Virus record (IMG/VR): IMGVR_UViG_3300045988_087221
DNA length: 64,000 nt
Source of the DNA: a virus
Strand: one strand, 5' to 3'
Below are positions 38,657 through 64,000 of the stretch, in pieces (positions within the stretch are counted from its first letter, which is position 1; each line of letters opens with the position of its first letter). The position numbers were made by a program, and so were the translations under genes. The notes under the pieces were generated by a model. The model saw only the letters and a program-made list of their open reading frames with translations. It was not told the origin of the DNA and searched no databases.

Positions 38657-38752
38657 AACCTTACTAAATAGTAAAGACCTAACTAAACAATAATTAGTTA
38701 ACTAACTAAAGTCTAATTAGGTCTTTTTGATTATGGAACTTAACAGAAAAAA

Positions 38753-39262: not shown

Positions 39263-39476
39263 TGTTGTAAATCTAAAATTGTGAATCTATAAACAGACAT
39301 AGTGTCTGTCTTATTATAATTGTGAATTGATACCTAAATACAACCTAACTACACTTAATTAGACTAAAAACCATATTAAATTTTATGGCAAAATCCTTAC
39401 ATTAGTTTCAAAACTAGTAGGCTCACGACTTTTCTTAAACTGTTTCATTTTTTATTACTATTTATATTGTTAATAA

Positions 39477-39686
39477 CTAGGAATTAGCCCATTTAATAAG
39501 CCAATCCCAACCTGTATATTCCTTAAACAGTTCTTCGTTCATAAAGGTAGAACAAAGAACACAAAGGGCAAATGCCCCAAAGCCCATAAATGCTGCCACA
39601 AAGAGTGACATATGAGCAATGTAATCTATACCACATATGTAAATAATGATATAGAATGCTGTGAAGTAAAAATAAAATCTTTTCAT
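39477..39686 (-). CDS. small membrane protein (hypothetical)
   Basis: 69 aa with two hydrophobic helices. Ends in TAG. Confidence 0.5.
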   Translation of the reverse strand: MKRFYFYFTAFYIIIYICGIDYIAHMSLFVAAFMGFGAFALCVLCSTFMNEELFKEYTGWDWLIKWANS

Positions 39687-43958: not shown

Positions 43959-44030
43959 TCTCTTATGGTGTAATGGTCAGCACAGAAGACTCTAAATCTT
44001 TTAGTCAGGGTTCGAATCCTTGTGAGAGAA
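43959..44030 (+). tRNA. amber suppressor tRNA (anticodon CTA), Gln-like
   Basis: Canonical cloverleaf: acceptor TCTCTTA/TGAGAGA (U1:A72), D GTGT-AATGGTCA-GCAC, anticodon arm GAAGA-CTCTAAA-TCTTT, T CAGGG-TTCGAAT-CCTTG. The D arm is nearly identical to that of tRNA-Gln(TTG) at 35041-35111. Confidence 0.9.
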
Positions 44031-44055
44031 CAATTTAATTATAAAAATATGTATT

Positions 44056-47199: not shown

Positions 47200-47296
47200 A
47201 TCTTCTTAAATATTTATTCCATAACTACTTATCTCTCTCATCTACAAAATCTAAAAATTCTTGTAGTTCGTCTAGTTGTATATTTATATCTCTCAT
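47183..47296 (-). CDS. small hypothetical protein (37 aa if TAG is read through, 23 aa otherwise)
   Basis: ATGA overlap with the upstream 379-aa gene. One in-frame TAG. Confidence 0.3.
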
Positions 47297-48432
47297 ACCT
47301 AGTTAATATTCTAATTATATATTTGAGCGATTGGATTTAAACCCTATTGTTTATTCCACTAATTAATAATCTATTTATCTCTATTTCTTCCTCTATTCAT
47401 TTCTACATTATAGAAGGCAGGTCTTGTATTATAGTTCTTCTATTTCAATCCCTATTTAAACTGTCCAAAGTTCTATACATTCTATAAATTTCTATATCTA
47501 CCATTAGTTAAACTATCAGTCGCATTCTTAGTCCATCCACCCAAGTTGGAAGCCCTTCTTCCGAATGAATAATATTTTCCAGGTCTGCCATCTTCTATCA
47601 TAGATAAGTGTGAAGTGTCGAAAGCAGCTTGTTGTGGAATACCCTAATTAACTAAGGAGATATATCTTTGTAGCACTTGAGGCTATGAATTATTAATCTG
47701 AAAATTTCCACCCTACTAATGTTTTTTAATTGTATTAGGATAAATTTTTATCTAATCGTAAGTATTATCTATATAGTTTCCCTATTTAGGAGTTACAGTA
47801 ATTTCAGGCAGTACAACTCCACCTTTATAAATCATAGTGGTCTAACCATCCTAGTTACCGTCTGCAGTTCCAAATAATGTAAGATTTGGATTTTGCATTC
47901 CGAAATCAGTTAAATAGAATTTAGTTCCTGATTTATTAAATCTACCTCTAGAAGGATGCGTTGGATGATTACTTAATTTTACAATATCATCATAATGTCC
48001 TGCATCATTGGGTTTTAACTAAGATAATAATTTATTATTAACATTATTATAATTTCCATTTCCATATTTTACTTGATTAGGAAAATACCGAGTTGTATTA
48101 GCTAATGCTCCTGTAGTAAAATTACCGCCCTACTAATATGTAAGAGGATGATTCTTCTTTAAGTCTTTTGTCTTAAACCATCCATTATCTAATATTGATC
48201 TATGACCATTTGGCTTATGTACTTCACCACCATCTTCATGTTTCCATTTCTTTGCATTCTAAGCAAATATGGCTCTTTTTCTAGTTAGAGGGTTTTTACT
48301 ATGTGTTAATTCTTCAGTAGTTTTACCTGTTCTCTTTTTAGTCTCAGTAAATTTCCCTCTATTTTCTTTTTTAATGTGTATTCCCGAACCTTTAGCTAGA
48401 TAAGGGATACCAAATATTTCTAAATCTTCCAT
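47293..48432 (-). CDS. hypothetical protein (379 aa), TAG-recoded
   Basis: 1140-nt frame from ATG to TGA, open only with TAG as sense. Repeated (Y/H)QQGGNF motif in which both Q are TAG. Confidence 0.65.
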
Positions 48433-48555: not shown

Positions 48556-49470
48556 ATGGAAAATTTAAGTATTGATAAACAAAACGGAACAGTAGTTTTT
48601 AATGAGAAAGCTCATCGTTATTGGGATGTTAATGACCCTTCTATCAAGTTTACTTCTGTAACTACTATGATTGAGCAATTTGGTCAGCCATTTGATAAAG
48701 AATTTTGGTCAGCATATAAAGCTTTAGAGAAATTGTTACCTGCTGATGAATTTAAGATTGAGAAGAAATCTCTTTTAAATACTAAGAAATTTGATCCAGT
48801 TCTATTAGAGGCACATAATATTACCGAGCTAGATTTTAATAAAGCACAGCAAGAAATATTAGACTCTTGGGACGAGGAGAATAGAAGATCTTGTGAAAGA
48901 GGTACTAAAATACATGCAGGATTAGAAAATTCCTTCTATACTAAGAAAAAGAACATTACTCTAGATAAATATCAAATAGGAGGTAAATTTGAGTGTCAAA
49001 AAGATAGAACTTCTCTAGATTTGGAAAATGCAGTATATCCTGAGTATTTAATTCATTGGGATTCTCCATCTGGTAAATTACATATTGCAGGTCAGATTGA
49101 TTTATTAGTTAAAAAGGGCAATTCTATCATAATCGGAGACTGGAAAACTAATAAGAAGATTGATACTAAAAGCTATTTTGATTCCAAAGTAAGAAGTTCT
49201 GTTAAGATGAAGTTTCCTCTAAATAATTTAGATGATTGTAATTATTATCATTATTGTCTTCAGCTTAGTACTTATGCTTATATAATTGAATCATATAATC
49301 CTGACTTTAGTATAGAAGACTTAGTATTAGTACATTTTGACCACAATGACAATATGACTGTTTATCATCTGCCTTATCTTAGAAAAGAAGTAGAACGTAT
49401 GTTATCTTATTATGAAAAGGAACATCTTCTACAAGAACGTAGATTAAAGAATAAACGAATTGAATATTAA
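48556..49470 (+). CDS. PD-(D/E)XK family nuclease
   Basis: GQIDLLVKKGNSIIIGDWKTNKK (D...D-x-K core) preceded by ERGTKIHAGLE. Standard code. Confidence 0.6.
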   Translation: MENLSIDKQNGTVVFNEKAHRYWDVNDPSIKFTSVTTMIEQFGQPFDKEFWSAYKALEKLLPADEFKIEKKSLLNTKKFDPVLLEAHNITELDFNKAQQEILDSWDEENRRSCERGTKIHAGLENSFYTKKKNITLDKYQIGGKFECQKDRTSLDLENAVYPEYLIHWDSPSGKLHIAGQIDLLVKKGNSIIIGDWKTNKKIDTKSYFDSKVRSSVKMKFPLNNLDDCNYYHYCLQLSTYAYIIESYNPDFSIEDLVLVHFDHNDNMTVYHLPYLRKEVERMLSYYEKEHLLQERRLKNKRIEY

Positions 49471-49561
49471 TATGATACTATGTATAGCATTATTACTAAT
49501 AGCTTATTTAATTTATAGCACTATAATTGAATTAACTAAGAATTAATATACAAATTAATAT

Positions 49562-49783
49562 ATGGAAGAATATATAACTAAACGTACTAAAATATGTAGA
49601 GCTTGTCCTATTTGTGACCAAGAAAATGAGATTTGTAATGCACATTTGTATTTAAATCCTGAAAATAATGATGTAAGTACAACACCTAAGAAGGGATATT
49701 TAAAGGGATGCGGATGCCACCTAAAATGGAAGATTAATAATAAAAACTCACATTGTCCTTGTAATAAATGGGAAGCAGAATGA
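49562..49783 (+). CDS. small Cys-rich (zinc-binding?) protein
   Basis: 73 aa with CRACPICD...CNAH...CGCH...CPC. Confidence 0.5.
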   Translation: MEEYITKRTKICRACPICDQENEICNAHLYLNPENNDVSTTPKKGYLKGCGCHLKWKINNKNSHCPCNKWEAE

Positions 49784-50025
49784 AATTAAACATATTAATT
49801 AAATGGTTACATGGTATTTTAACTAAGCCATTAACTATATTAAAAAGCATATATTATAATATTAAGAATAAACATCAAGATATAGCAATCAAGAGATTAG
49901 ATATATGTCATAGATGTGATCATAAATTAGATACTAACTTCGGTGGTTTATGTGATTTATGTGGATGTGTGTTAGATAATAAAACTAGAATTAAAGATGA
50001 ATTTTGTGAACAAGGTAAATGGTAA
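49768..50025 (+). CDS. small Cys-rich (zinc-binding?) protein, related to the previous ORF
   Basis: 85 aa with CHRCDH...CDLCGC...C. Confidence 0.5.
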   Translation: MGSRMKLNILIKWLHGILTKPLTILKSIYYNIKNKHQDIAIKRLDICHRCDHKLDTNFGGLCDLCGCVLDNKTRIKDEFCEQGKW

Positions 50026-50048
50026 TTATTGCCATAAATTAAATGTAA

Positions 50049-50654
50049 ATGACTATGGATTTTAGAAGTGAATTAAATGGAAAAGAGAAAGTAGCTCAAT
50101 CACTTATCGGTATGGAAAGTACAGGAACTCCTATTGTAGTTAATGGACAAAGAGCAGATGTTATTTTAGCTAATGAAAAGAAGTCTAAATTTAATACTAG
50201 AGTAGATGAATATGTAGATAAATTTGAAAAACACAATAAAGCACTTGAGGACTATGCTAAGGAAATCTCAAAGGACATCAATGGTTTAGAGATATTACCA
50301 ATGGGTTCTTATGCATTGATTAAACCCTTTGAGGAGAATCCTTTCCAAAAGGTAACAGTAGAGAGTGGAATTATTACAGACTTGGGTGGATTTACTCCTC
50401 AATATAAGAGTGAAGAGGATGGTCAAATTCATGAATTAGAACAGTTTATTCGTGTTGGTACTGTAATTGAAACCGGATTCAAATGCGAGTTCTTAAAAGA
50501 GGGTGATGTAGTATTCTTTACTAAAGCTAGTGAAGCTACTGTTCCATTTTTCAAGCAAGGATTTGTAGTAGTTAATGAATCGCGAATTATGGCAATAGTT
50601 AATGAGAAATTAACAGAAAGAAAGAATCAAATTAAAGATAATGGAAACAAGTAA
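50049..50654 (+). CDS. GroES/gp31-like co-chaperonin domain protein
   Basis: The C-terminal half follows the Cpn10 pattern: LIKPFEE...ESGIITD...VGTVIETG...LKEGDVVFF...VVVNESRIMAIVNE. Last gene in the standard code. Confidence 0.4.
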   Translation: MTMDFRSELNGKEKVAQSLIGMESTGTPIVVNGQRADVILANEKKSKFNTRVDEYVDKFEKHNKALEDYAKEISKDINGLEILPMGSYALIKPFEENPFQKVTVESGIITDLGGFTPQYKSEEDGQIHELEQFIRVGTVIETGFKCEFLKEGDVVFFTKASEATVPFFKQGFVVVNESRIMAIVNEKLTERKNQIKDNGNK

Positions 50655-50664: not shown

Positions 50665-50850
50665 ATGCAGCCGGGAGATGTAGTTTAGTTACGTTAGCGT
50701 GACAAAATGCATTGTCCGGCTATGCTTGTTATTAGAAAAGAGCAAGCATTATTTAAAGATGAAATGAAAGGATTGAGATGTAGATGGTTTACTGACTCAG
50801 GTTTAATGCAGGAAGCAGTATTCAACACTAAGGATCTAATACTTGTATAA
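50665..50850 (+). CDS. DUF2158 (YodC)-like small protein, TAG-recoded
   Basis: 61 aa with 2 in-frame TAG. GDVV(Q)L...PAMLV...CRWF...EAVF pattern. Confidence 0.55.
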
Positions 50851-50852
50851 TT

Positions 50853-52412
50853 ATGGCATGGAAAACAGTTAATGCAGCATAGTCAACAGATGCTCAAAGT
50901 CAAAATGCTTTTAGAAGATTTTCTAATATACTTATGTCACATCGAAATGCTAATGGTAATATTTAGTATAATCCCCAAGATAAATCTTACCGATTAGTAA
51001 ATGATAATGGAATATTTTATTCTAATGGCAGATTCTTTTCTAGATCTGGAGCAAAGGGTAATTATGACATAAATACAGGAAATTTTTTAAAGAAAAAAGT
51101 AAATAAACCAGCTACTTCTGTAAAATAGTAGTCCTCTACTGGATCCAAAGATATAGTATCCTAGGTGACTAATCCTAACTACTTATATGGTTATAAAGAG
51201 TAGGTAAATAAATAGAACAAAATTCCTATGAATTCTCCTGCTATTAACAAATCAAGAACTACATTAGCTCCAAAAACTTCTACATCTAATTCATGGATTA
51301 ATAAGAGTAGAGGAATATGGAATTATAATGGAGTATCCCAAGCAGATGTAGCAAATGCTTATAAGACGGGAGATTTCAGTAAAGTAGGAAGTTACTTGTC
51401 TCAACATAGAGATTTAGCTAGTTATTTAAATAATATTTATAGTAAGAGGGGAGGCAACTAGTTTAATTCATCTACACCAACTTAGCAAGCAACTCCTATT
51501 AAAGGAACTCCCGGATATGGCATTCATGTTGGAAATGGTAGTGTAACTTTATCTACTCCAAATGGCTCAACTACAGATATAACTAATTCTCATAATGTAT
51601 CTACCTTAATTAATAATGGTAATTATAAAGCACCTAATTTAGGAGGTATGACTACTAATTATTTAGAAAGTAGACCATTAAATAGTTATTCAGAACTTAC
51701 TAAGCATAATTTTGATAGAGGTGATATTAGATAGGGTATGAAAGCAAATGGGATAAATCCCTATGATTATTCAGGTTCAGATAGAAAATAGTTAAGAACA
51801 TATTTAAATAATCCTACAACTGATAACTATACTCAATCTGTAAGTAAAATTATAGGAGATGGTAAAATCTAGTAGAATATGTTAAATAATGCTGTTCAGA
51901 ACTAGACTAATTAGTATCAATTAACTAAACCTAATTTAGGATATAATCCAAATTAGAATAATTAGTTAGTTAATTTAAAATTTAAACAAGGAGGATAGAT
52001 GTATAAATACGCAGCAGGAGCACAAATGGTACAACCACAATAGGCAAGTGGACAATAGGGAATGGAATAGTAGGCAATAGCTTTAGTTTAGGCAGCTATG
52101 TAGGGTGACTAGCAAGCTAACTAGACTATTTAGAAAATTATGTAGGCAGCACAACAAGGTGATTAGCAAGCAGTTCAGGTAGCTAAGTTACTACAAGCTA
52201 TTGCTCAGCAAATGAAGGGATCTCGTAAAGCAAGACTCGGTGCTAAGTTAGATTATATTAAATAGTCTATTGGAGAATGCCCTGAAGGTCAAGAAGTAGT
52301 ATATTTTAAAAAGGGAGGAGAAATCTGTAAAATATGTGCAGGTAAAAAGATGCAAGATGGGGGAAAATCTGACCCTATTAAAAACTTTAAGAAAAAGAAA
52401 AAGATGAAATAA
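50853..52412 (+). CDS. hypothetical protein (519 aa) with Gln-rich helical region and C-terminal CxxG..CxxC motif, TAG-recoded
   Basis: Track ORF 51228-51461 lies in the same frame (offset 375). Continuous only with TAG as sense. Ends in TAA. Confidence 0.6.
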
Positions 52413-52439
52413 AATACTGATGTTTAATGTTAATGATTT

Positions 52440-53000
52440 ATGAATGTATTTAATTATGATAGCGACCATCTTATTCTAGAATTAAATGAGCCTGAGATTC
52501 TTTTAATTAGAGAATTTAAGGCTCTTCTAGATAGAGATAAAACGAAAACTAAGACTAGAGTAAATAAAGAACTTACTTATATTTATTTGGCTTTGGATTG
52601 GAAGTCCCCTTATTCTAATTATTTAGAATAGGAAAGACATGAAGAAGCCCTAGCTGATAGTGGTTTGACAGAAGCTTAGTTTAATGACCCTATATTTAGA
52701 GAAGCTTGTCGAAAATATAGGAAATTACAAGAATCAAATAAATCTGTGAAATTATTGGAGGCAGCTCGAAGAGCAGCAGATTAGTTTATAGATTATTTTG
52801 AGACTATTGTAGATTTAAATGAACGAGATATTAATGGTAAACCTATTTTCTCTGCAGAAAAAGTAATGAAAGAGATGGCTTAGTTGAGTAATGTCCATGA
52901 GCAATTAATTACTTTAGAGAAAGAAGTTAAAGAGTCTGTATCACAAGAATCTGCAACTAGGGGTGGAGTTAACACTGGATATGACCCAGGTGATTTTTAA
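52440..53000 (+). CDS. hypothetical protein (186 aa), possible small terminase subunit by position, TAG-recoded
   Basis: Extends track ORF 52440-52631 through 4 in-frame TAG to TAA. Lies directly upstream of TerL. Confidence 0.5.
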
Positions 53001-53005
53001 TTAAT

Positions 53006-55366
53006 ATGCCCAGAAAGAAGAAAGTATTACCTGATGAAATCTAGTTAATTGTAGATGAAGTAAAAAAGAAATAGTAGGAAGAAGATACTAAAGAAGCTAA
53101 GAAATTAGTTGATGAATATAGAATTGAACGTTCTAATGATAAGACATATTGGGATATTACTAAGGATATGAAAATAGAATGCTTCGATCCTACTCTATCT
53201 TACGAATTAACTGGTTATAGACCTATAGATGAAACTCATGGTTTAGATTTTGACCCTTCATGGTTTACTGAAGTTAGAGAAACATTTCTAAGAACTGGAA
53301 GATATTGTTCTTATTTACCTAGAAGTAAAAGATGGGATGCATTTTGGAAAGAACAATATACTAGATGTAAATATGGTATGACCTCACATGGATATACTAT
53401 TACTGGAGATAACTATTTCTTCTTAAATTTTTATTAGTTACCAGTAGTAGATATGGATAAGGCATCAGGTGAAGGTACTAATGAAAGTTTTCCAGTATTC
53501 TTTGCTTCACAATATATGTTCTTTCATTATTTATAGATGTGTAGAGTATTACATAAAAATGCTGCCTTAATGAAGGCACGTTCAATTGGTTTTAGTGAGA
53601 TAAATGCCTCTCTTGCAGCTAGACTATACACTACTATAAAAAGAAGTAGAACTATGATTACTTGTTTTAAAGATACTTATTTAAATGGTACCTTTAGTAA
53701 ATTAGACCATGCTCTCACATTCATTAATACAAATGCTGATGGATTTTTTAAACCTAGATTAACCGATAAAGCATTAGAAAAGAAATCAGGATACCAAGTT
53801 AAAATAGATGGTCAGTTTACAGACTTTGGATGGCGTTCTGTTGTAATAGGAATTAATGGAAGCAAGCCTTCTAATATTCGTGGTGATCGTGTTGATCTTC
53901 TTATTTATGATGAGGCTGGTTCGTGGCCGGATTTAACTACTGCTGTAGTACAAGGACAAGAGTTATGTGAAGTACAGGGTGTTCCTAGAGGTATTATGTT
54001 GTTTGGTGGTACTGGAGGTGACTTTGGTCCCCCTCTTGAAGGATTAAAAAAGATTTATTATAATCCTAAGGCTTTTAAGATTCTACCATTTAGACATAAA
54101 TGGACACAAGATGGAACTACTATAGAGAGTGGATTCTTTCTTCCTTATTTTCTACAATCTTTGAATCCTGAATACATGGATTCTAGAGGAGTTTGTAATT
54201 AGACCGAATATAAGAAATTATTACAAGAAGAAAGAAATAATCTATTAGCTGTTCCTGAAGACTACCTTAAAAAGTGTGCTGAGCGTTGTTGGAATGCAGA
54301 AGAAGCATTTACTCTCGAAGGTTAGAATAAGTTTAATAAAATGAAGATAGCAGATTAGTTAGCTAAAATACGTCTTCATAAAATTGGACCTAGACCACAA
54401 GTAGGAACTATTGATTATACTTACAAATCTAATAAGCATTCTTTAGAAAATATAGATGGATTTAGATGGCTTCTTAATTCTGGCAAAGTTTAGATATTGG
54501 AACATCCAGTATGGTCTGATTTATATAAAGAATAGATTGAGAAATAGAAGAAAGAAGCTGAGGAATAGGGAATCGATTTTGAAGCCCCTGTATATACAGA
54601 AATGAATGATTTATATGTAGCAGGTATTGATGGTATTGATATTGGTGCTGCTTAGACTTCTAAAGAAACTAGAGACCCTTCTGATTTTTGTATTGTAATT
54701 AAACGTAGAGCCTTTGGTCTTAATGAACCACAATATGTAGCTATGTATAAAGATAGACCTCAAAATATTAGAGAAGCTTATAAGATAGCTATGTGTATGT
54801 GTAGATATTATAATTGTAGAATTAATATAGAGGCTACCCGTGTAGGTATGATTACCTGGGCTAGAGAAAATAAATGTCTACAATACTTTATGAAAAGACC
54901 TAGAGCTACTTTGACTGATATTAAATATGGTACTACTAAATAGTATGGTACTCCTGCAACTAAAACTATTATAGAACAGCAAACAGACCTTATAGCAGAT
55001 TATGTAGAAGACTATGGACATAATATCTGGTTTGAAGATATGTTGGTGTAGTTAAATGGTTATAATGATGAGAATAAAACAAAGTTTGATATTATAGCTG
55101 CTCTTGGAATGGTTGAACTTGCAGATTAGGAGTTATCGGGAAGACAACCTACAAAAGTTGACAAAGAAGTTGAAGAATTTTAGGACTATGGATATTATAT
55201 AAATGACAAAGGTTATAGAGAATTTGGGGTTATTCCAAAGAAACAATCAAATCAAATAGTAATTAAATAGGAGGAAAACAATGACCCATACCGAATTGAA
55301 ACAAGTGATCCTAGATTATATGAGAACACAGTTTTAGATAGACTTTATAGGAGATATTCGTATTGA
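53006..55366 (+). CDS. terL: terminase large subunit, TAG-recoded
   Basis: Track ORFs 53168-53437, 53537-54202 and 54743-54943 are all in one frame (offsets 162, 531, 1737). 18 in-frame TAG by my count. Walker B VDLLIYDEAGSW, then LFGGTGGD, then a nuclease-type AGIDGIDIG motif. The 3' end could instead be the TAG at 55268. Confidence 0.8.
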
Positions 55367-55583
55367 AGATTTAGACCCTATAGGATATAAAGTTTCTCTT
55401 AATCTAGACCACGCTGAGAACCCTTTTGTACTAATGGCAGATTTACCTGATGATAAATTTGTAGATTTTATAAAAGAGGAATTAAGAAGAAGTAAATTAC
55501 ATAGAGTAAAGTATTTTAAAGCAATTAAAATACAACCTCCAGAACCTAAACTATGTTATGACAGACAAAGAGCTTATAGATAA
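55281..55583 (+). CDS. hypothetical protein (100 aa), TAG-recoded
   Basis: ATG preceded by TAGGAGGAAAACA. 1 in-frame TAG. Overlaps the TerL tail and the portal start. Confidence 0.45.
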
Positions 55584-57729
55584 GACTAACGAAACCATTT
55601 CTGAACTTGTATATGATAAAACTAAGCTATAGAAAGCTTATAATTATTATAATGGAAAAAGAGACAAGGAATAGTTTCGTTATCTAGAAGAAAACTTTGG
55701 TATAGGAAGTCCTACTTCTGTTGAATTTACACCTTTACTAAGAAAGCATGTAGATGCTTTAGTTGGTGAATTTCTAGGAACTCCTATATTACCAAAAATA
55801 TCCTGTAAAGATGCAGGGACTATCAGTAATATGGATAGAGAAAAATAGCTATTAATATAGACACAAATAATAGGATTTTTAAAAACACACTTAAATAATT
55901 CTTTACTTAAATTTGCTAATAACTAGGATATTACTGATAAATCTATTAAATAGTAGTTAGATAAAATAATTGAAGAGTAGGATTAGCAATTTGTTTCTCA
56001 ATATGAGATTGCTGCTTAGAATATTCTTCAATACATTATGTAGTCTGAAGAAATTGATTTTGTAACTAAACTTAGACAATTATTTATAGATTTATTAGTT
56101 ACAGGTTATTGTTTTTACAGAGTAAAACCATCATTTAGTAAAACTAACATTGAGATAGAGGTATTAAATCCTTTAAATACCTTTGTAGACAGAAATCCTG
56201 AATCTCCTTATGTTAAGAAGTCTTATAGGTCAGTTGTGAGACAATGGCTTTCTAAAAGTTAGATATTAGCTAAATATGGAAATGAATTAAGTAAAGAAGA
56301 CTTACGTAATTTTAAATAGAATTGGACAGATGATGATACAGCTAGATATAGAAGAGCATATGGTCCAGTTGTAGATATAGATGAAGCTAGTGACGATGAC
56401 GAAGAACAGGATTTACTTCCTGGTTATCCTGAAGATGATTCTCATAGATATAATCTGATTCCAGTATATGAAGTAGAATGGATAGAAACTGATGATAAAT
56501 TTATTATGTAGAGATATAATACAATTAGAATCGGTGATGAATATTATATTCTTAGAGGAATTGATAAATAGGTAATCAGAAGTCATGATAATCCTAATTA
56601 TTGTGGATTATCAGTAAATGGTGTTTATTTTTTAAATAGAGCTCGTTAGCCTTATAGTTTAATCTTAAAATGTGCTCATTTGTAGGATCGTTATGATCTT
56701 TTACATTACTATAGAGATGCTATTGTAGCAAATAGTGGAGTTAAGGGTAGCATTATTGATATTTCTATGATTCCTAAAGTGTTAGGACCCGATTTTGGAG
56801 CTAGAGTAAAGAAATGGAGAGCTTATAAGAAACAAGGAGAGATGTTAATTGATTCTTCTCAAGAGGGAAGAATGGAAGATGGATAGGCTCCTTTAAATAC
56901 TATATTTAATGGCTATGATGAATCTTTACCAGCATAGGTAATACAAGCAATTGATTTAGCTATACAATCTATTGAATCTACTGTATCATCTATTACAGGT
57001 GTATTTAGAGAAAGACTTAATGGTATTGAACAGAGAGACGCCGTAACTAATGTTAAATAGGGAGTAACTAATTCTTATACTGTGACTAAACCTATTTATT
57101 AGCAAATGGATTTAGTTGTAAGAGAAGTCTTACTTGATAGTCTTAATTAGGCTAAAATAGTTTATAAGAAAGGACTGACTGGTACTATTACTCTAGGAGA
57201 TAAATATTAGAAAATATTTACGGCACTTCCTGAATACTTTACAGTTACAGACTATGATATACATGTAATATCTAGTACTGAAATTATGTAGGATATGTAG
57301 ACAATTAAATCTACATTACCTGATTTAATTAAGTCTGGATTAGTTAGTGCTGACATTATATTTGAAGCTCTTACTGCTAAGAGTTTAACTGAACTTAAAT
57401 ACACTGTTAAGAAAGCCATAGAAAAATAGAAAGCTGAAAATAATTAGTTATAGCAACTGTAGCAGAAGTTAGAGGAAACTAGTTAGTAGTTACAATAGGC
57501 ATAGCAAGAGTTACAGAAGGCTCAATAGAAAGCAGAATCTCTTAATGAACAAAGAATGTAGCTTGATTAGCAGAAGATTCAATTAGAATATCAAGTTAAT
57601 TGGTATAAAGCTCAAACAGATAGAACTTATAAAGATAGACAATTAGATATAGAGGATTAGAGAACTAAAGTTGAATTAGCTTAGTTAAATGATGGTAATC
57701 CTTATAATGACAAAATTAGACAATCGTAA
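55558..57729 (+). CDS. portal protein (probable), TAG-recoded
   Basis: 723-codon frame open only with TAG as sense. Position just after TerL. N-terminal Y.YYNGKRDKEQF.YLEENFG and a very Gln-rich coiled-coil C-terminus. Confidence 0.6.
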
Positions 57730-58619
57730 TGGCAATCAGTTGTGAAAAAGTATACTCTGGAACTGGTGATTAGATTTATCCAGAGACAGCAGATAAAGCA
57801 GTTACAGTTCTAGCTAAAAATACTACACTCGACCTATATTTAGCAGACCTTGCTAGATAGATTTCAGAAAAATAGGGAGCTGATGAAGTAGCTAAATCTT
57901 TAAAATTTAAAGTAGATTATTTAGCTACAAATACAGCAGATGTTGCTAAAGTGAAGGAGTTAGAAGATTAGCCTGAAACTAATTAGTGGGGTGAAAACTT
58001 TGTATTACCTTCTGTGAAGACTCCTTACACCTGGAAAAGAACCATTGTATATTTTGAAGGATAGAATCTTAAAGACGGTTAGAAATTTTATGAAATTGTA
58101 ACTGCTGATATTGCTGAGATTAGTTAGACTCTATATATGGTAAAAGATAATTCTTAGTAGCCTAAGGTAATATATCCATAGAAAGCGGTAGAAATAGATG
58201 GAGAACTATAGAATGTAGACGATACAGATGCTTCTATAGATGAAATAATTAAAGCCAGTGAAGCGGGTAAAAATAATTGGAGTAAATATCCATCAGAAAT
58301 AACTGCATCTAATCCATATGGATTTATGGCGGTACGATAGAGAGTGAGTGGTGCTTGGAGTTTATTTAAAGTTGCATTATATTCTAAGTGGGCTTATGAT
58401 AGTAGACTTGTTACTAAATTTACAGTAACTAGTACTTTTGAAAGACCTCAATTAATTAAAACTGCAATAAATCCAGGCAACTAGTGGACAGATACTAATG
58501 AATAGGAATTTACTGGCTATCTATGGATGATTTCTGCATCTTAGAACAATAATAATTATGTTTTAGACGACAATAAGAATATATGGAGTGAACCTCAATT
58601 AATTTCAATAGTTAAGTAA
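57729..58619 (+). CDS. hypothetical virion-module protein (296 aa), TAG-recoded
   Basis: TAATG overlap with the portal gene. Frame open only with TAG as sense. Confidence 0.55.
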
Positions 58620-59398
58620 TGGAATTTAAAATAGATATTTGTAATTCAGTACAAGGTGATTTAACTGTATTAGATTTATCTAAAGAGTACGGTCAATATT
58701 TATCTGAAGCAGAAGAAGTAGCCAGTACTTATGAAGATACATTATTATTTAAATACAGTAAGTCAGTAACTGTAAATGTATTAATGAAAATAGGAACTAC
58801 AGAAATAACATTCTTAGATGCATTAATACACGAACATAATTAGTTAGAAAATGGAGTATATAAAGATGATGCATGTACTTTCAACCTTAAGGAAGATGGT
58901 TTTTACACTATTGACCATTATGTATTTCCGAATATAGATTGGTATAATTGGTATAAAACTGAAGCTTCACAAGAATATAAAGATAAAATAAATAGAGTAT
59001 ATATAATAGATGAGGGAGTTATTAAGAAGGAAGTAGACGGGGTATTAAAAGAAACTACTCTTAGAGAAGTACTAGAAATGAATTTAGAAGGAACTCCTAT
59101 TTAGTAGGAACATATAAATACTTTCTTTACAGGAAATATGCAACAGTGTTATGTTAATTATTGTAAGAGATTATTTAATGCACTATTAAATAAATGTCGA
59201 ACTTCTGCGTATAATGAAGATTTATATGCGAGAGACTTCATTTGGATGACTCTTAATATAATAGATTATTTAATCTAGTTTGAACAATTTATGGAAGCTG
59301 AAAAAATAGTAGAAGAATTTAATACTTGTGGAGGCTTCTGTTAGAATAATGAATATGGATAGCATACAGCTCATGGATGTGGATGTTCTAAAGCGTAA
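58619..59398 (+). CDS. hypothetical protein (259 aa) with Cys-rich C-terminus, TAG-recoded
   Basis: Extends track ORF 58619-58843 through 6 in-frame TAG to TAA. Confidence 0.55.
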
Positions 59399-59603
59399 AG
59401 CAATAGAACTTTATAGAGATTTATTAAATAGAGCAAAGAAAGGTTATCAAGATGATTATTCATTATTGTTAAATATTATTTGTTTTATTAGTTTACCTAT
59501 AGATATAGATAACAAAGAATTTATTAAAGAGAACTTACTAAATTAGAATGATACACTCTATTTACAATTAGGTAGGGAAGGTAGGTTTAACACCATGTTC
59601 TAA
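59349..59603 (+). CDS. hypothetical protein (84 aa; 65 aa if the TAG at 59544 terminates)
   Basis: Same frame as track ORF 59328-59546. ATG at 59349. Confidence 0.4.
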
Positions 59604-60870
59604 AGAAAGACCTAAACAACTTATACCTCTTTTAAAGAGTAATTTTTTAGGAGAATTTCAAACAGAACTAGAAAAGAAATTGGCTAGAGAAAGTATAGGT
59701 GTAACAGTTACAGGTAAATATACATATAAACCTGACAGTGACCATATAACAAATACAGAATAGATTACATCTATATATGAAGCACTTGACTATGCTTTAA
59801 CTCTAGCTAAGTCTTATCAAGATAAAAAGATAGAAGAATAGATAGAAACTATTAAAGCTAATATAAATTAGTTAACTAGCACTGTTACTAATTAGGGATA
59901 GGAGTTATCTACTTTATAGGAATTAGTTAATACTATTAATACATAGGTAGGAATCTTAAATGGTCAATTAGCTAATTTAAATGTAGATGATAAAATAGAA
60001 GCATGGATTAGAGCCCATTCAGGTTCAGTAGCTCTAAATGAAGAATCTAAGTTAGATTTTGCTATATCTAAAGCTGAAGGTAATGCTATTAAATCTAATG
60101 AAGATGGTCTTTATGTTGAAAGCTCTTCTGCTGCAGTATATAAGTCAGAATTGTCTGATAATATTAAAATGAATACTTCTGTGGGAGGACTTAAATAGGG
60201 AACTAAGGTATCTGATTTAAAAGGCAAAGCATTCTCTACTATATTAGATAAACTATTATTTCCAGTATTAGTTAGAGAATTGGTTCAACCTTATGTAGTA
60301 TCTAATGTATCTAGTTAGTTAGTAGAAGTAGGTAGTCCAGTTATTCCAGCAAATACAACTTTTATCAAAGGAGATGCTGGAGATGTAACTTCTAAAACAG
60401 ATTCTATAACTCATAATGATTAGACTTACACAGAGTCTACATATACAGAGTTAGGAGACTACATTTATAAAGTAGTAATTAATTATTCTGCTGGAGAATA
60501 TTTGATTGATGATAGAGGATAGACTACTGATAAAAGAATTGAAGCAGGTTCCATAAATAAAACTGTGGCTACTGTTTCAGCAACATATCCTTGGTATTAT
60601 AATACTCATAAAGGTACCTTAGTTAAATATGGCACTCAATCTGATATAATGGAAATTAATTTATCTGGCAAAGCTGTTATTAAAATACCAGGTACTAACT
60701 CAACTTTAGATAGTCTAAAAGTAAATGGTGGTTTAGGATTCTTAGATGTTGATATGTCTGGATGGACTAAAACTACTGAACAGATAAATGATTATACATA
60801 TTAGGTATGGACTAAGAATGATTCTTATACTTCTGAACTACCTCATCAAATTCAATTTACATTAGCATGA
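59548..60870 (+). CDS. tail fibre-like protein (440 aa), TAG-recoded
   Basis: Track ORF 60565-60804 is in frame (offset 1017). N-terminal coiled coil and Ser/Thr/Asn-rich beta region. Ends in TGA. Confidence 0.55.
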
Positions 60871-61982
60871 AATATACAGGTGATTCGTTGTTAGGAGTTT
60901 CATTTTCAGTAAAAACTCCTAAACCATTAGATTGTAGAACTGTAGTAGATACTACTTAGGAATTATATACTATTCCTGCTGAAATAGCATACGAAGGTAT
61001 GTCAGTTTCTAATCTTGAAGATGGTTATATTTATATGTTAGTAGACAAAACTAATATAACTAATTCTGATGGATGGGTAGCTTCTTATAAGGCTCTTTAG
61101 TTAGTTAGTTGCACAGAAGCTGAGTATACAGAATGGAAGAAAAATACTACAGAACAAGGAACTGCAATAGATTCTGAAAAGCCTTATTTACATAATGATA
61201 CTTATTATTATATCTATGAGGATAGTATCGAAAATAAAGATACATATTATGTAAATCAAGAATAGTACCAACGTGTTTGGAACTTAGCATCCTCTAAAGC
61301 TGATAACACTAGTTTCTTAGCTTTACAAAAGAAAGTGGAAAGTAATAATACTAATATCACTACTAACTACTTAACTAAAAAAGATGCTACAAATACTTAT
61401 ATAAATAAATCATTTTTAGAGGGTACTACAGAAACTACTTTAAAAGAAGTAACAGATAAGTATCAAACTGCGGAAACATCTGATTCTAAATATTTAAAGC
61501 CCTCAAATTTTGGGGTAGATGATGTAAATACTTAGTTTTCGTTTTTAAATACTACAGCTTTCGAGGAATACAAGGCTACAGTTACAGAATAGTTAGACAC
61601 TAAAATAACTAAAAACTCCAGAGCTACCTTAGAAAGTTTAATGGTAAATACTATTTAGAATACTTCAGGTAATACTATGAGTATTAAAACTGATGGTATA
61701 TTCTATGGTGCAGAGAAATTAGCTAAAGTTTCAGAAGTGCCTAAGTGGATGTGTTTATCTCAAGAAGAATATAAATAGTTAGAGACAGATGGTACTTTAC
61801 AGGATGATACTTATTATTTAACATATGGCAAAAATACAGATGATTCTGGATTTGTAACTGCAGACTTATTAGAGAGATAGATAAAGTCTATTATGCAAGG
61901 TGTGACTAAACTACAAGATTCAGCAACTTTAGCAGATTGTATTTCTAAAGTAAATGAAATAATAGATAAATTCAAAGTTTAA
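60867..61982 (+). CDS. tail fibre/structural-like protein (371 aa), TAG-recoded
   Basis: ATGA overlap. Track ORF 61335-61535 is in frame (offset 468). Confidence 0.55.
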
Positions 61983-62039
61983 TAATATTCTTATATTGTT
62001 GTCTTTTCCTATTATTTATTAAACTAAAACTTATTTATT

Positions 62040-62648
62040 ATGTCAACAATTTGGAAAAATGGAAAATATTAGCCTTTAATTAGGTATGTCACTAATAAAG
62101 ATTTTAAACTATTATCTAACCTTGTAAATATTATAAATGGGGATTCCAATACTAAAGGTTCCTTTAGAAAAATTATAAAAGACTTAATTGGAGGAGCCCC
62201 TGAAGCTTATGATACATTGAAGGAGATTGCAGATAAACTCAAGAATAATGATGATTTATATACAGCTATTAGTAATACTATTGCTACTAAAGCTACTACA
62301 GTTGCCCTTAATGAAGAGATTACAAGAGCTAAAACAGCAGAAGCGTCTATTACATCAGATGTTACAGAAAAGCTTGCACAGAAAGCAGACACTACTGTAC
62401 TTAATGACTATGTTCTTACAACAGCACTTAATTAGCAGGTTGATATGTTAAAGGCTTCTATTGATGCAAAGCAGCCTAAGGGTAATTATCTTACAGAGCA
62501 TCAATCTCTTGAAGAATATGCTAAGAAAAGTGAGATTGCTAAATAGATTGCTGCTAAGGCTGACATTACAGCTCTTACAGCACTTGAAGCACGTATTGCA
62601 GCACTTGAAGCCAAGCATACTGAAACTAATACTTAGATAGAAGCTTAA
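62040..62648 (+). CDS. tail fibre-like coiled-coil protein (202 aa), TAG-recoded
   Basis: GAPEAYDTLKEIADKL motif common in phage fibre proteins, plus heptad repeats. 4 in-frame TAG. Confidence 0.55.
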
Positions 62649-62668
62649 TAAATTATATTAGATTTTAA

Positions 62669-62890
62669 ATGATATATAGAAATGGTAAGTTAGTTTCTGA
62701 AATTAATAAAAATCTTTCAGAATTAATTGATACAATTGAATAGGTAGCACAGAGAAGTATAGGAGCTGTATACAAGGGTTCCTAGTTAGTATTTTTAACT
62801 GTGCTAAATGCTATAAAGAGCTGTTATGGTAGTGGTTCTTGGCTTTCAGATAAAAATTGGTTAGATAATGATTATTGGAAAAATAAATAA
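62669..62890 (+). CDS. hypothetical protein (73 aa), TAG-recoded
   Basis: 2 in-frame TAG. Ends in TAA. Confidence 0.4.
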
Positions 62891-62895
62891 ATAAA

Positions 62896-64000
62896 ATGGC
62901 AATCTTTAAAGATTTAGAAAATAAAATTGAACTTGAGACACCTTGGAATGAAAAGACCGGTCAATAGGTAGAAGATTTAATCTCTCGCCATCTTGTTAAT
63001 TCTATGGATTTTGCTGATAGCACACTTACATTAAGAGATTATAATGGAGATGCAATTACTTCTACTAGAGTCACTGTAGAAACCCCATCTTATGATTAGG
63101 ATGTGTTAGTTGTTGCTGTTAGAATTAATGGTACTATTTATAAAACTGGGGAAGTAGTTATGTAGTGCAATTCTAAGAGCAAGGTAGAATTAGCAGTAGC
63201 TACAAGTCATACTTCTACTACCTAGTCTTTTGGTGTTTAGGATGCAGCAGGTGCCGTAAAAGTTAAGATACAATATGGAGTAAATAGTATGGAAACTACT
63301 GTCGCTCCTTATGCTTTAAAAGATTTTACATTAGATTCCTCTGGTACTAAAATTGAACATCTTAATAAAGCGGATAGTGAATTAAAATGGATTAATATCA
63401 CAGAATTATTTACAGATTCATAGGAGAGTACTATTACAGCAACACTTGTAGATTACCCTCAAAAGTCTAGTGTTCTTAATGTATCTATTAAAAGTCAAAA
63501 GATAAGTTTATCTTATACAGGTAATGTTATTTCTAATAATGCAGAATTTACTCTTAAAGGAGGTTCTCCTGCAGATTATCATCTTGAGGGTTATTTAAAT
63601 GCAAATCGTATTTATACTACTGATGGTAATTTATCTTATAATAAATTACAATCTGGTTTAAATATATTAACAGTTAGGGCAGTACATAAATCCTAGAATA
63701 TTGCAACAGATTATGTAAATGCATGTGTAATTAAATCAGAAGGATTTACAGGAGTTGCAGTAGCAGTAAATGGTATTACTGGTTCTATTAATAATCATGA
63801 TACAGTAAAATTATATACTATTACAGTTTATAGTCCTACTAAGGATTCTGTTACTATTAATACATATTTAAATTCTGATTCATCTTAGGATAGACAAAAC
63901 TTACTTGACACTATTATAGTTAATGCATAGAACTATGGTTCAGATAATAAATATGAAACTACTTATAAGAAATATATAGAAGTAAATAGTGATAATGCTA
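62896..64000 (+). CDS. structural (fibre/receptor-binding-like) protein, 5' partial in window, TAG-recoded
   Basis: Frame opens from the ATG at 62896 and runs to the window edge with TAG as the only stops. Confidence 0.5.

What the first reader, a model, noticed from the sequence alone, without database searches (positions are those of the whole stretch)
50665..64000. The late structural operon reads only if TAG is a sense codon (code-15-like), with a sharp code boundary near 50,655
From 50,665 to the window edge, the standard-code track shows only scattered 60-220-aa fragments. Those fragments fall into single frames: the TerL pieces at 53168, 53537 and 54743 are offset by multiples of 3 from an ATG at 53006. 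Every interruption is TAG and none is TAA or TGA. Reading TAG as an amino acid gives 14 back-to-back genes with ATGA or TAATG coupling, all ending in TAA or TGA. Recognisable terminase, portal-like and fibre motifs run across the TAG positions. The upstream plus-strand genes (48,556-50,654) and about 75 minus-strand genes are intact in the standard code. The reassignment is therefore confined to one gene class rather than the whole genome. TAG recoding in gut phages has been described before, so this is not new in kind. It does dominate how this window must be annotated.
Basis: partly seen in the sequence, partly recalled or inferred. Interest (0 to 1): 0.85.

Follow-up and report, generated by a model that had tools for sequence, protein, structure and literature searches.

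The report
Phage late genes read TAG as glutamine
This is part of a ~190-kb crAss-like gut phage whose virion genes use the stop codon TAG for glutamine, read by a phage-encoded suppressor tRNA, while its other genes keep the standard code; the phenomenon is real but already well described.

Summary
The core observation holds. On the + strand from 50,665 to the window edge, the coding frames of 11 genes hold 148 TAG, 0 TAA and 0 TGA. Coding density is 95% with TAG as sense and 20% under the standard code.

TAG means glutamine. In 51 related contigs it exchanges mainly with CAG and CAA. The sum TAG+CAA+CAG stays constant between orthologues. Gln is the maximum-likelihood residue.

Three are heavily recoded: 47,293-48,432, 45,152-47,086 and 31,776-32,921. 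The code map is therefore a patchwork by gene class, not one boundary.

The 85 other genes have no internal TAG among 304 Gln codons. Fourteen of them end in TAG, which swaps only with TAA in relatives. TAG therefore has two meanings in one genome.

This matches what is published for crAss-like phages, especially the Zeta group, which has 145-192 kb genomes and late-gene amber recoding. It is ordinary for that group. It matters mainly for annotation.

The parts
50665..50850 (+). First recoded gene: 61-aa DUF2158-like protein with 2 in-frame TAG. It starts 10 nt after the stop of the TAG-free GroES-like gene.
   Evidence: Sequence read. Pfam DUF2158 E 1.7e-4, 21.7 bits, just under the 22.3-bit cut-off. 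Found in 50 relatives. The spacer is 7-25 nt in all 50.
50853..52412 (+). 519-aa Q/N-rich protein of unknown function, 30 in-frame TAG
   Evidence: No PHROG or Pfam hit. Gln codons seen in relatives at 18 of 30 TAG sites.
52440..53000 (+). 186-aa protein directly upstream of TerL, 4 TAG
   Evidence: phrog_16390, unknown function, E 8.9e-10.
53006..55366 (+). Large terminase subunit (TerL), 786 aa, 18 in-frame TAG
   Evidence: phrog_6681 E 1.4e-66. tblastn to crAss-like TerL at 25-28% identity. 786-aa homologues at 97-98% identity. TAG+CAA+CAG constant in close orthologues.
55281..55583 (+). Small overlapping ORF (100 aa, 1 TAG) between TerL and portal
   Evidence: Found in 50 relatives at 28-100% identity.
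55558..57729 (+). Portal protein, 723 aa, 38 in-frame TAG
   Evidence: phrog_6547 E 4.8e-46. Gln seen in relatives at 33 of 38 TAG sites. TAG+CAA+CAG = 64 in all close orthologues.
57729..58619 (+). 296-aa protein, 16 TAG against 2 CAA/CAG (TAG share 0.89)
   Evidence: TAATG junction.
58619..59398 (+). 259-aa protein, 6 TAG
59349..59603 (+). Small overlapping ORF (84 aa, 1 TAG)
   Evidence: Found in 45 relatives.
59548..60870 (+). 440-aa tail-protein-like gene, 13 TAG
   Evidence: tblastn to the annotated tail protein of crAss-like phage cr11_1, 31% identity over 38% of the query. Weak phrog_19577 hit.
60867..61982 (+). 371-aa protein, 8 TAG, ATGA overlap with the previous gene
62040..62648 (+). 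202-aa tail-fibre-like protein, 4 TAG
   Evidence: phrog_18185 tail fiber E 1.2e-9, plus 17 other PHROG families, several annotated tail or tail fiber.
62669..62890 (+). 73-aa ORF, 2 TAG. This is the 14th gene of the array.
62896..64000 (+). Gene of at least 368 aa that runs off the window, 9 TAG
47293..48432 (-). Recoded minus-strand gene, 379 aa, 21 TAG (TAG share 0.68), unknown function. It is transcribed divergently from the + strand array.
   Evidence: Orthologues in 45 relatives are also TAG-rich, 289 TAG against 135 CAA/CAG. No family hit.
45152..47086 (-). Recoded minus-strand gene, 644 aa, 22 TAG (share 0.67), unknown function. A strong terminator-like hairpin follows at 44885-44916.
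   Evidence: No PHROG, Pfam, PDB or GenBank-phage match.
31776..32921 (-). Recoded gene inside the non-late block, 381 aa, 12 TAG. It has a PG-binding-like N-terminal part and nearly invariant Cys/His residues, so it is a putative cell-wall hydrolase. It is part of a strain-variable cassette at 31194-33005.
   Evidence: phrog_2649 endolysin E 6.8e-4 over residues 31-106. Nearly invariant C211, H310 and H329. The cassette is absent in L053 and present in L060. The structure model is weak and gave no significant fold match.
43959..44031 (+).
   Evidence: ARAGORN. Rfam tRNA 63.3 bits. Cloverleaf with loop CUCUAAA, U1-A72, A73 and a D-arm shared with the window's tRNA-Gln(UUG). Present upstream of TerL in relatives down to about 72% TerL identity.
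48556..50654 (+). TAG-free genes on the same strand immediately upstream of the recoded array: a PD-(D/E)XK nuclease, two small Cys-rich ORFs and a GroES-like co-chaperonin. They mark the code boundary.
   Evidence: Pfam PDDEXK_1 and Cpn10. PHROG exonuclease and GroES. 0 TAG here. In 50 relatives the counts are 0 TAG against 505 CAA/CAG and 2 against 372.
10943..39686 (-). Span that holds the 14 standard-code genes ending in TAG, for example 22823-23788, 37390-37719 and 16500-16796. Here TAG acts as a terminator.
   Evidence: In relatives these TAGs align with TAG or TAA (17 TAA cases), twice with TTG or with gapped alignments, and never with CAA/CAG.
35040..35111 (-). Phage tRNA-Gln(UUG) in the tRNA array, used for comparison with the suppressor

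Best explanation
The window comes from a large crAss-like gut phage whose relatives have contigs of about 183-194 kb. It most likely belongs to the Zeta group.

The genome uses two readings of TAG. In 17 genes TAG is a glutamine codon and supplies 57% of all Gln codons. These genes are the packaging and virion array from 50,665 onward, two divergent genes at 45,152-48,432, and one putative cell-wall hydrolase at 31,776-32,921. The other 85 genes never use TAG internally, and 14 of them use it as their terminator.

Inferred mechanism, following the published model: on entry the host's standard translation makes the TAG-free genes. TAG-laden messages abort within the first 8-75 codons. Once tRNA(CUA) accumulates, TAG is decoded as Gln and virion and lysis proteins can be made. 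The TAG-ended genes would then be extended by a median of 5 residues.

Shown here: the TAG=Gln equivalence, the gene-class partition and its conservation, and the presence and conservation of the tRNA. Inferred: the charging identity of the tRNA, the timing, and the regulatory purpose.
For: 1. Only TAG interrupts. There are 207 in-frame TAG and 0 TAA/TGA in 5,872 codons of 17 genes, and all complete genes end in TAA or TGA. Off-frame TAA/TGA are abundant.
2. TAG equals Gln at codon level. In contigs at 90% identity or more, window TAG aligns with TAG 1557 times, CAG 72, CAA 28, GAG 15, AAG 8 and never TAA. Gln appears in relatives at 92 of 189 TAG sites; the next are Lys at 51 and Glu at 47. 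This matches the spectrum of true Gln codons. TAG appears in a relative at 52% of window CAA/CAG sites, against 2-13% for E, K, S, Y, L, W and N. The BLOSUM likelihood is best for Gln by 68.7 log-likelihood units (natural log). TAG+CAA+CAG is constant in orthologues while the TAG share varies: TerL 17+20, 18+19, 19+18, 20+17; portal 36+28, 39+25, 40+24.
3. A tRNA(CUA) is present and conserved in relatives. A second CUA tRNA in relatives is orthologous to a tRNA-Gln(CUG), with an A/G difference at the third anticodon base.
4. The partition is strong. The 85 other genes have 0 internal TAG among 304 Gln codons (Fisher p about 1e-72). The nuclease and GroES-like genes stay TAG-free in 50 relatives. 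Terminal TAGs of non-late genes swap with TAA, never with CAA/CAG.
5. Literature. Late-gene TAG-to-Gln recoding with suppressor tRNAs is described in crAss-like phages including Zeta (PMC7886860, PMC12386605). The temporal model is in bioRxiv 10.1101/2021.08.26.457843. [quoted passage not shown]
Against: - The tRNA's Gln identity is not proven. Its overall identity to the window's tRNA-Gln(UUG) is only 48/73. Its exact D-arm also occurs in tRNA-His(GUG): 6 of the 11 exact matches in the genome-contig collection, all in uncultured MAGs and mostly Patescibacteria.
- No release factor, GlnRS or other code-change gene was found among the window genes scanned. How RF1 competition is overcome is therefore unknown.
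- The code boundary at 50,654/50,665 is a 10-nt spacer with no detectable promoter or terminator. The early/late labels rest on gene content, not on expression data.
- If TAG is Gln, late proteins are 6.1% Gln against 2.6% in the other genes. This is plausible for Q-rich structural proteins but unusual.
- No proteomic or transcript data are available here.
Confidence: 0.9

Rival explanations
1. Genome-wide code 15. TAG is never a terminator in this phage. The non-late genes merely avoid it, and the 14 apparent TAG stops are read through to the next TAA or TGA.
For: After a terminal TAG the next in-frame TAA/TGA is a median of 5 codons away, so read-through would be harmless. The suppressor tRNA is present throughout the clade.
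Against: There are 0 internal TAG among 304 Gln codons in 85 genes, against 57% TAG in late genes. This is not expected under one uniform code. Terminal TAGs exchange with TAA in relatives (17 cases) and never with CAA/CAG. The distance to the next stop does not differ from the control genes (median 5 vs 7, p = 0.31), so there is no sign of selected back-up stops.
Confidence: 0.06
2. TAG encodes an amino acid other than glutamine. Candidates are His (suggested by the D-arm), Glu, Lys, or pyrrolysine as ARAGORN labels the tRNA.
For: ARAGORN names any CUA tRNA 'tRNA-Pyl'. The D-arm sequence is shared with tRNA-His in uncultured, mostly Patescibacteria, MAGs. Lys and Glu are the second and third commonest residues at TAG columns.
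Against: In close relatives the changes are CAG 72 and CAA 28, against CAT 1, GAG 15 and AAG 8. CAA needs two changes yet ranks second. TAG+CAA+CAG is conserved. The likelihood favours Gln by 68.7 log-likelihood units (natural log) or more. The acceptor end is U1-A72/A73, like the phage tRNA-Gln and unlike tRNA-His. No pyl gene appeared among the window genes scanned with PHROGs or Pfam.
Confidence: 0.02
3. The TAGs are assembly or sequencing errors, or the late genes are decaying pseudogenes.
For: None beyond the fragmented appearance under the standard code.
Against: Of 1,685 aligned window TAG codons, 1,557 are also TAG in independently assembled contigs at 90% identity or more. Only one of the three stop triplets occurs in frame. 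Orthologues down to 45% TerL identity are also TAG-recoded. TerL and portal profiles match end to end.
Confidence: 0.005
4. The decoding is the same (TAG=Gln through tRNA-CUA) but the purpose differs. The suppressor mainly damages host translation or defence by read-through. Alternatively, TAG accumulated neutrally in genes expressed after the tRNA appears, rather than serving as a timing lock.
For: Both ideas are raised in the literature (PMC7886860 discussion; PMC12386605 discussion). Some Zeta phages keep a CUA tRNA without any recoding (PMC12386605, Table 1). TAG share varies freely among close orthologues, as expected for near-neutral synonymous drift.
Against: The TAG-free state of neighbouring same-strand genes is kept across 50 relatives, with counts of 0/505 and 2/372. 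The first TAG lies within codons 8-31 in 12 of 17 genes. Both argue for selection on where TAG may occur.
Confidence: 0.25

Closest known systems
TAG-to-Gln (code 15) recoding of late genes in crAss-like phages (Yutin et al. 2021, PMC7886860; Borges et al., bioRxiv 10.1101/2021.08.26.457843; Peters et al. 2022, PMC9523058)
   Same: In-frame TAG only, in TerL, portal, tail and lysis-type genes. Other genes are compatible with the standard code. The phage encodes tRNA(CUA), and TAG columns align with Gln.
   Different: This lineage is much larger than the ~105-kb crAss-like phages analysed by Borges et al. The recoded genes lie in at least three patches rather than one unit. No proteomic confirmation exists for this phage.
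Zeta crAss-like phages with amber suppression, for example ctkor1 (187,612 bp, 31.36% GC, CTA suppressor) in Table 1 of PMC12386605
   Same: Relatives have contigs of about 183-194 kb. The window is 31.2% GC. There are many tRNAs, a CUA suppressor, amber recoding of structural genes, interrupted genes in relatives, and TerL only distantly related to classical crAss-like TerL.
   Different: Identity with any named Zeta genome was not tested, because none is in the collections searched. The signature RNAP and IHF genes lie outside the window.
Block-wise dual coding in phage genomes (Mgcod, bioRxiv 10.1101/2022.06.29.495998) and Lak, Agate and Jade phages with several recoded modules (Borges et al.)
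   Same: The genome is divided into standard-code and stop-reassigned segments. Recoded modules are scattered, as in Lak and Agate phages.
   Different: Here one block boundary is a 10-nt spacer between co-directional genes. A single recoded gene also sits alone inside the standard block.
Classical amber suppressor tRNA-Gln(CUA), E. coli supE (from general knowledge)
   Same: A Gln-type tRNA with anticodon CUA inserts Gln at UAG in competition with RF1.
   Different: supE is a weak, host-encoded suppressor of rare nonsense mutations. Here the tRNA is phage-encoded and must decode 207 codons, the majority Gln codon of the late genes.

Membership tests
Phage stop-codon recoding, TAG-to-Gln (genetic code 15) in late genes | Conserved late genes are interrupted by one stop triplet only (TAG) and end in the other two | tested here: met
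   207 in-frame TAG, 0 TAA/TGA; terminators TAA 12 and TGA 4.
Phage stop-codon recoding, TAG-to-Gln (genetic code 15) in late genes | TAG columns correspond to Gln in homologues | tested here: met
   CAG and CAA dominate the replacements. The Gln-codon sum is conserved. Gln is the maximum-likelihood residue.
Phage stop-codon recoding, TAG-to-Gln (genetic code 15) in late genes | Phage-encoded suppressor tRNA with anticodon CUA | tested here: met
   43959-44031 (+), found by ARAGORN and Rfam at 63.3 bits, and conserved in relatives.
Phage stop-codon recoding, TAG-to-Gln (genetic code 15) in late genes | The non-late gene set is translatable with the standard code | tested here: met
   85 genes with 0 internal TAG. 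14 end in TAG, which swaps with TAA in relatives.
Phage stop-codon recoding, TAG-to-Gln (genetic code 15) in late genes | Gln incorporation at TAG shown at protein level, and the tRNA charged with Gln | not testable with these tools
   This needs metaproteomics or tRNA charging assays. The sequence features of the tRNA are only compatible with Gln, and the D-arm is not Gln-specific.
Phage stop-codon recoding, TAG-to-Gln (genetic code 15) in late genes | The host uses the standard code | not testable with these tools
   The host is unknown. The only evidence is indirect: the TAG-free, TAG-terminated non-late genes.
Zeta group of crAss-like phages | TerL related to, but deeply diverged from, Crassvirales TerL | tested here: inconclusive
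   The best annotated GenBank hits are crAss-like TerL at 25-28% identity. PHROG 6681 matches. No tree with named Zeta genomes could be built.
Zeta group of crAss-like phages | Genome of 145-192 kb | tested here: met
   Contigs carrying TerL at 97% identity are mostly 161-190 kb in IMG/VR. The longest contigs listed for near-identical TerL proteins are commonly about 175-195 kb. This is indirect, because the window itself is only 64 kb.
Zeta group of crAss-like phages | crAss signature genes (giant RNAP with DxDxD, IHF, conserved structural genes) | not tested
   These lie outside the 64-kb window and were not fetched.
Zeta group of crAss-like phages | [quoted passage not shown] | tested here: inconclusive
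   The TerL match spans 2.7-3.5 kb in L029, L044, L047, L049 and L051. The window's tRNA-Leu(UAA) is split by a 572-nt insert, but there is no Rfam group I hit.
Pyrrolysine decoding of UAG (the ARAGORN label 'tRNA-Pyl') | TAG columns are not Gln-like, and pylS/pylBCD genes accompany pylT | tested here: not met
   TAG columns are Gln. No pyl family appeared in the PHROG and Pfam scans of the window genes examined.

The most novel reading that the evidence does not exclude
The TAG lock may act cistron by cistron rather than promoter by promoter. The boundary between TAG-free genes (nuclease, GroES-like) and the first recoded gene is a 10-nt spacer in a co-directional array, and it is kept at 7-25 nt in all 50 relatives. 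A lone recoded putative cell-wall hydrolase sits inside the standard-code block. TAG also serves as a true terminator for 14 other genes. If this reading is right, a single transcript could yield different protein sets before and after the suppressor tRNA accumulates. That would be a purely translational developmental timer. The conserved phage tmRNA might help by clearing ribosomes from aborted or read-through messages.
Probability: 0.3. Interest if true: 0.45.

Novelty: already known. Interest (0 to 1): 0.25.

Why it matters
In practice, a standard-code gene caller turns about 20 kb of this window into fragments. It would miss TerL, portal, tail genes and three further genes. The window therefore has to be annotated with two codes.

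Biologically, this is a clean and very abundant example of a virus that gives one codon two meanings within one genome. One TerL variant was seen on 695 contigs. The constant TAG+CAA+CAG sum among orthologues is simple, assembly-independent proof that TAG is synonymous with CAA/CAG here.

It adds no new principle beyond the published crAss-like and Zeta work.

Tried and rejected
- Back-up stops after the 14 TAG-terminated genes are not enriched. The median distance to the next TAA/TGA is 5 codons against 7 in controls, p = 0.31.
- Promoter and terminator scans found nothing above shuffles. Sigma-70-type sites numbered 58 against 61.4 expected. The Bacteroides-type motif TTTG...TAnnTTTG gave 4 against 3.94 expected. 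Only two strong hairpins stand out: 43928-43955 just before the tRNA, and 44885-44916.
- The base after sense TAG shows no clear bias: A45, T44, G41, C18 against the codon-first-base background.
- Using the D-arm as a Gln identity marker was rejected. The exact 20-mer also occurs in tRNA-His(GUG) in 6 of 11 hits in the genome collection, all in uncultured MAGs.
- The odd tRNA at 30954-31027, whose loop contains CUA, is not a second suppressor. It is an orthologue of a tRNA-Arg(CCU) in L060 with a 1-nt deletion in the loop.
- The Rfam tRNA hit at 33240-33344, with a CUCUAAA string, could not be folded by hand into a cloverleaf with a CUA anticodon.
- The functions of the three off-operon recoded genes remain unresolved. 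There were no Pfam, PDB-sequence or GenBank-phage hits. The AlphaFold model of the 381-aa protein had pLDDT 61 and no significant Foldseek match.
- No release factor or aminoacyl-tRNA synthetase was found among the 50-odd window proteins scanned.
- Megablast of 50000-64000 against GenBank phages gave no match.

Full report
**Observation**

The window is 31% GC. GC skew is negative up to about 48 kb and positive beyond. This follows the coding strand: minus-strand genes lie up to 43.2 kb and at 45.2-48.4 kb, and plus-strand genes lie at 43.5-44.9 kb and from 48.6 kb onward.

Beyond 50,665 the + strand has only 11 standard-code ORFs of 60 aa or more. The longest is 222 codons and coverage is 20%. 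Treating TAG as sense gives a tight array with 95% coverage. Treating TGA or TAA as sense rescues nothing.

TAATG junctions lie at 57729 and 58619, and an ATGA junction at 60867. The three small or overlapping ORFs at 50665, 55281 and 59349 are found in 45-50 related contigs, so they are probably real.

In the coding frames of 11 of these genes there are 148 TAG, 0 TAA and 0 TGA. The other two frames hold 195 and 554 TAA/TGA. Chance cannot produce this pattern. PHROG profiles for the large terminase (E 1.4e-66), portal (E 4.8e-46) and tail fibre run across the TAG positions.

The minus strand is not uniformly standard. Three genes there are as heavily recoded as the + strand array:
- 47293-48432: 21 TAG.
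- 45152-47086: 22 TAG.
- 31776-32921: 12 TAG.

The first two are transcribed divergently from the + strand array and end at a strong hairpin at 44885-44916.

The third sits alone in the non-late block. It is part of a cassette (31194-33005) that is missing in one closely related contig (L053) and present in another (L060). It has a peptidoglycan-binding-like segment (phrog_2649 endolysin, E 6.8e-4) and nearly invariant Cys211, His310 and His329. Its neighbour is a standard-code YkuD-type L,D-transpeptidase-domain gene. A cell-wall hydrolase role is my inference. The AlphaFold model was weak (pLDDT 61) and Foldseek found nothing significant.

ARAGORN finds it (labelled 'Pyl' only because of the anticodon) and Rfam scores it at 63.3 bits.

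**Which amino acid**

I fetched 51 IMG/VR contigs encoding TerL at 46-97% identity, with 10-kb flanks. I aligned orthologues codon by codon without assuming a meaning for TAG.

- In contigs at 90% identity or more, window TAG aligns with TAG 1557 times, CAG 72, CAA 28, GAG 15, AAG 8 and TCG 2, and never with TAA. CAA needs two substitutions yet ranks second.
- Per site, Gln codons appear in relatives at 92 of 189 TAG sites. Lys follows at 51 and Glu at 47. This is the spectrum shown by genuine Gln codons.
- Conversely, 52% of the window's CAA/CAG sites are TAG in some relative, against 2-13% for Glu, Lys, Ser, Tyr, Leu, Trp and Asn.
- A BLOSUM-based likelihood puts Gln ahead of the next candidate (Glu) by 68.7 log-likelihood units (natural log).
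- Most simply, the sum TAG+CAA+CAG is constant among orthologues while the TAG share drifts. TerL gives 17+20, 18+19, 19+18 and 20+17. Portal gives 36+28, 39+25, 35+29 and 40+24. In the 69% clade the portal gives 28+28, 35+21 and 36+20.

TAG is therefore synonymous with CAA/CAG. It supplies 207 of 360 Gln codons (57%) in the 17 recoded genes. All relatives down to 45% TerL identity are recoded to some degree. The TAGs recur in independent assemblies, so they are not errors.

**The tRNA**

The CUA tRNA has a normal cloverleaf with anticodon loop CUCUAAA, U1-A72 and A73. Its D-arm matches the window's own tRNA-Gln(UUG) apart from a 1-nt insertion. A CUA tRNA was found upstream of TerL in every relative scanned down to about 72% TerL identity, and in none of the more distant loci.

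I tested whether the D-arm is Gln-specific, and it is not. Of 11 exact matches in the genome collection, six are tRNA-His(GUG), all in uncultured MAGs and mostly Patescibacteria. Four are the same phage tRNA on contigs binned into MAGs. The acceptor end differs from those tRNA-His and matches the phage tRNA-Gln.

Some relatives carry a second CUA tRNA that the window clade lacks. It is orthologous to a tRNA-Gln(CUG) in L044, differing in the anticodon only at its third base (A versus G) and at a few other positions. It is also orthologous to a UUA-anticodon tRNA in L136 and L137. So the tRNA evidence is compatible with Gln, but the codon evidence carries the argument.

**The other gene class**

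The 85 remaining genes have no internal TAG among 304 CAA/CAG codons (Fisher p about 1e-72 against the late set). These are mostly small proteins of unknown function. They also include AAA and P-type ATPases, an adenylosuccinate-synthetase-like enzyme, a nuclease and a GroES-like protein.

Fourteen of them end in TAG. In related contigs fetched around an early gene, these terminal TAGs align with TAG or with TAA (17 cases) and never with CAA/CAG. This is the mirror image of the late genes. TAG is thus a terminator in one class and glutamine in the other.

The idea of selected back-up stops did not hold. The next TAA/TGA lies a median of 5 codons after a terminal TAG and 7 codons after other stops (p = 0.31). 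This is simply what a 31% GC genome gives.

**The boundary**

On the + strand the switch happens across 10 nt, between the TAA of the GroES-like gene at 50654 and the ATG at 50665. No promoter-like or terminator-like signal stands out there.

In all 50 relatives that have both genes, the spacer is 7-25 nt. The upstream genes stay TAG-free, with 0 TAG against 505 CAA/CAG for the nuclease and 2 against 372 for the GroES-like gene. The partition is therefore conserved and selected. It may cut through a transcription unit, but I cannot show that.

The small + strand cluster that contains the tRNA (43513-44862) is TAG-free in this window. The ORF just upstream of the tRNA carries 3-4 TAGs in the clade at 73% TerL identity.

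**Mechanism**

Shown here: the decoding equivalence, the class partition and its conservation, and the presence of the tRNA.

Inferred: the temporal model published by Borges et al. (bioRxiv 10.1101/2021.08.26.457843). Standard-code genes are translated first. The suppressor tRNA then accumulates. TAG-laden virion and lysis genes become translatable after that. The first TAG lies at codons 8-75 in every recoded gene, so premature translation would abort early.

No release factor, GlnRS or other code-change protein was found among the window proteins scanned. How RF1 is out-competed remains open.

**Comparison with what is known**

TerL is 25-28% identical to annotated crAss-like terminases. 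It is 42-47% identical to two unannotated human-gut phage records. There is no nucleotide match in GenBank phages.

Near-identical 786-aa TerL proteins are already in the protein collection as full-length sequences. They come from contigs of up to about 195 kb, and one variant was seen on 695 contigs.

Yutin et al. 2021 (PMC7886860) defined the Zeta group of crAss-like phages. [quoted passage not shown] A 2025 survey (PMC12386605, Table 1) lists amber-suppressing Zeta genomes. One is ctkor1 (187.6 kb, 31.36% GC, CTA suppressor), which resembles this lineage. Peters et al. 2022 (PMC9523058) confirmed code 15 by proteomics in two crAss-like phages.

I could not place this phage on a tree with named Zeta genomes or see its RNAP and IHF genes. 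Zeta membership is therefore likely but not proven.

**Verdict**

It is already known in kind and very probably for this lineage. Its value lies in annotation. The window needs two codes, three extra recoded genes and the suppressor tRNA must be added, and the 'single sharp boundary' should be replaced by a gene-class patchwork.

Noticed in passing
window 14097-14433 (-): A phage-encoded tmRNA (Rfam 51 bits against a gathering score of 47; ARAGORN tag peptide GEVNNTSASYAIAA). It is present with a near-identical tag in relatives L052, L053, L058 and L060. The Zeta survey (PMC12386605) does not mention tmRNA, and a full-text search surfaced no paper linking tmRNA to these phages.
   Followed up: partly
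window 41581-41667 (-): A RAGATH-1 hammerhead ribozyme (Rfam RF03152, 80.8 bits, full length) directly upstream of the gene at 40991-41572.
   Followed up: no
window 33159-33817 (-): tRNA-Leu(UAA) is split in its anticodon loop by a 572-nt insert, which is the classical group I intron site. The uninterrupted orthologue is seen in L103. Rfam finds no group I intron there, only a weak tRNA-like hit at 33240-33344.
   Followed up: partly
window 30954-31027 (-); L052, L053, L058, L060, L071, L114: A tRNA with a 6-nt anticodon loop (CACUAA). Its orthologue in L060 is a tRNA-Arg(CCU) with a 7-nt loop and A33. ARAGORN reports irregular anticodon loops in the other relatives (2-base or 4-base anticodons). 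This may be a decaying or unusual tRNA family.
   Followed up: partly
L011, L012, L021, L031 and L037 (CUA); L044 116-186 (CUG); L136 5191-5261 and L137 677-747 (UUA): A second tRNA, absent from the window's clade, occurs as an orthologous series with anticodons CUG (Gln), CUA (amber suppressor) and UUA (ochre-type). It captures suppressor birth by single anticodon changes.
   Followed up: partly
window 4229-6688 (-): An 819-aa P-type cation-transporting ATPase with the full Pfam domain set (E1-E2_ATPase, Cation_ATPase_C/N, Hydrolase). This is an unusual cargo gene for a phage.
   Followed up: no
window 226-1377 (-): An adenylosuccinate-synthetase-family protein (Pfam PF00709, E 7e-35). The matching PHROG 1211 is labelled '2-aminooxy adenylosuccinate synthetase'. 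Whether it is a PurZ-type enzyme for base modification was not examined.
   Followed up: no
window 31194-33005: A strain-variable cassette, absent in L053 and present in L060. It holds the recoded putative hydrolase (31776-32921) and most of a standard-code YkuD_2 L,D-transpeptidase-domain gene (31187-31750, whose last few bases lie outside the indel). Homologues of the recoded gene are mostly found on very short contigs of 1-4 kb, which suggests assemblies break here.
   Followed up: partly
L029, L044, L047, L049, L051 (TerL match spans 2.7-3.5 kb); MT835539.1: TerL of several relatives is interrupted by insertions of 0.3-1.2 kb, which may be introns or inteins. The window's TerL is uninterrupted.
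   Followed up: no
window, all genes: If TAG is Gln, the recoded proteins are 6.1% Gln against 2.6% in the standard-code genes. Without TAG both sets are 2.6%. Part of the excess lies in Q-rich coiled-coil tails, such as the portal C-terminus and the 50853 protein.
   Followed up: partly
window 43513-43911 (+) and orthologues in L011-L047: The ORF that always precedes the suppressor tRNA is TAG-free in this clade. It carries 3-4 in-frame TAGs in the clade at 73% TerL identity, so class membership of a gene can change.
   Followed up: partly
window 22823-23788 (-): This 321-aa protein of unknown function has 238 relatives in IMG/VR. The 80 loci kept are at 40-82% identity and lie on contigs from about 6 to 190 kb. 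Even strains with near-identical TerL carry versions only 44-63% identical. It is a fast-evolving or exchanged accessory gene.
   Followed up: no
L134, L136, L137, L141 (genome contigs): Contigs carrying the same suppressor tRNA, including one of 186 kb, are binned in public MAGs labelled Bacteroides sp., Clostridium sp., Tenericutes and Firmicutes. These are likely phage contigs mis-binned into bacterial MAGs and are not reliable host evidence.
   Followed up: no
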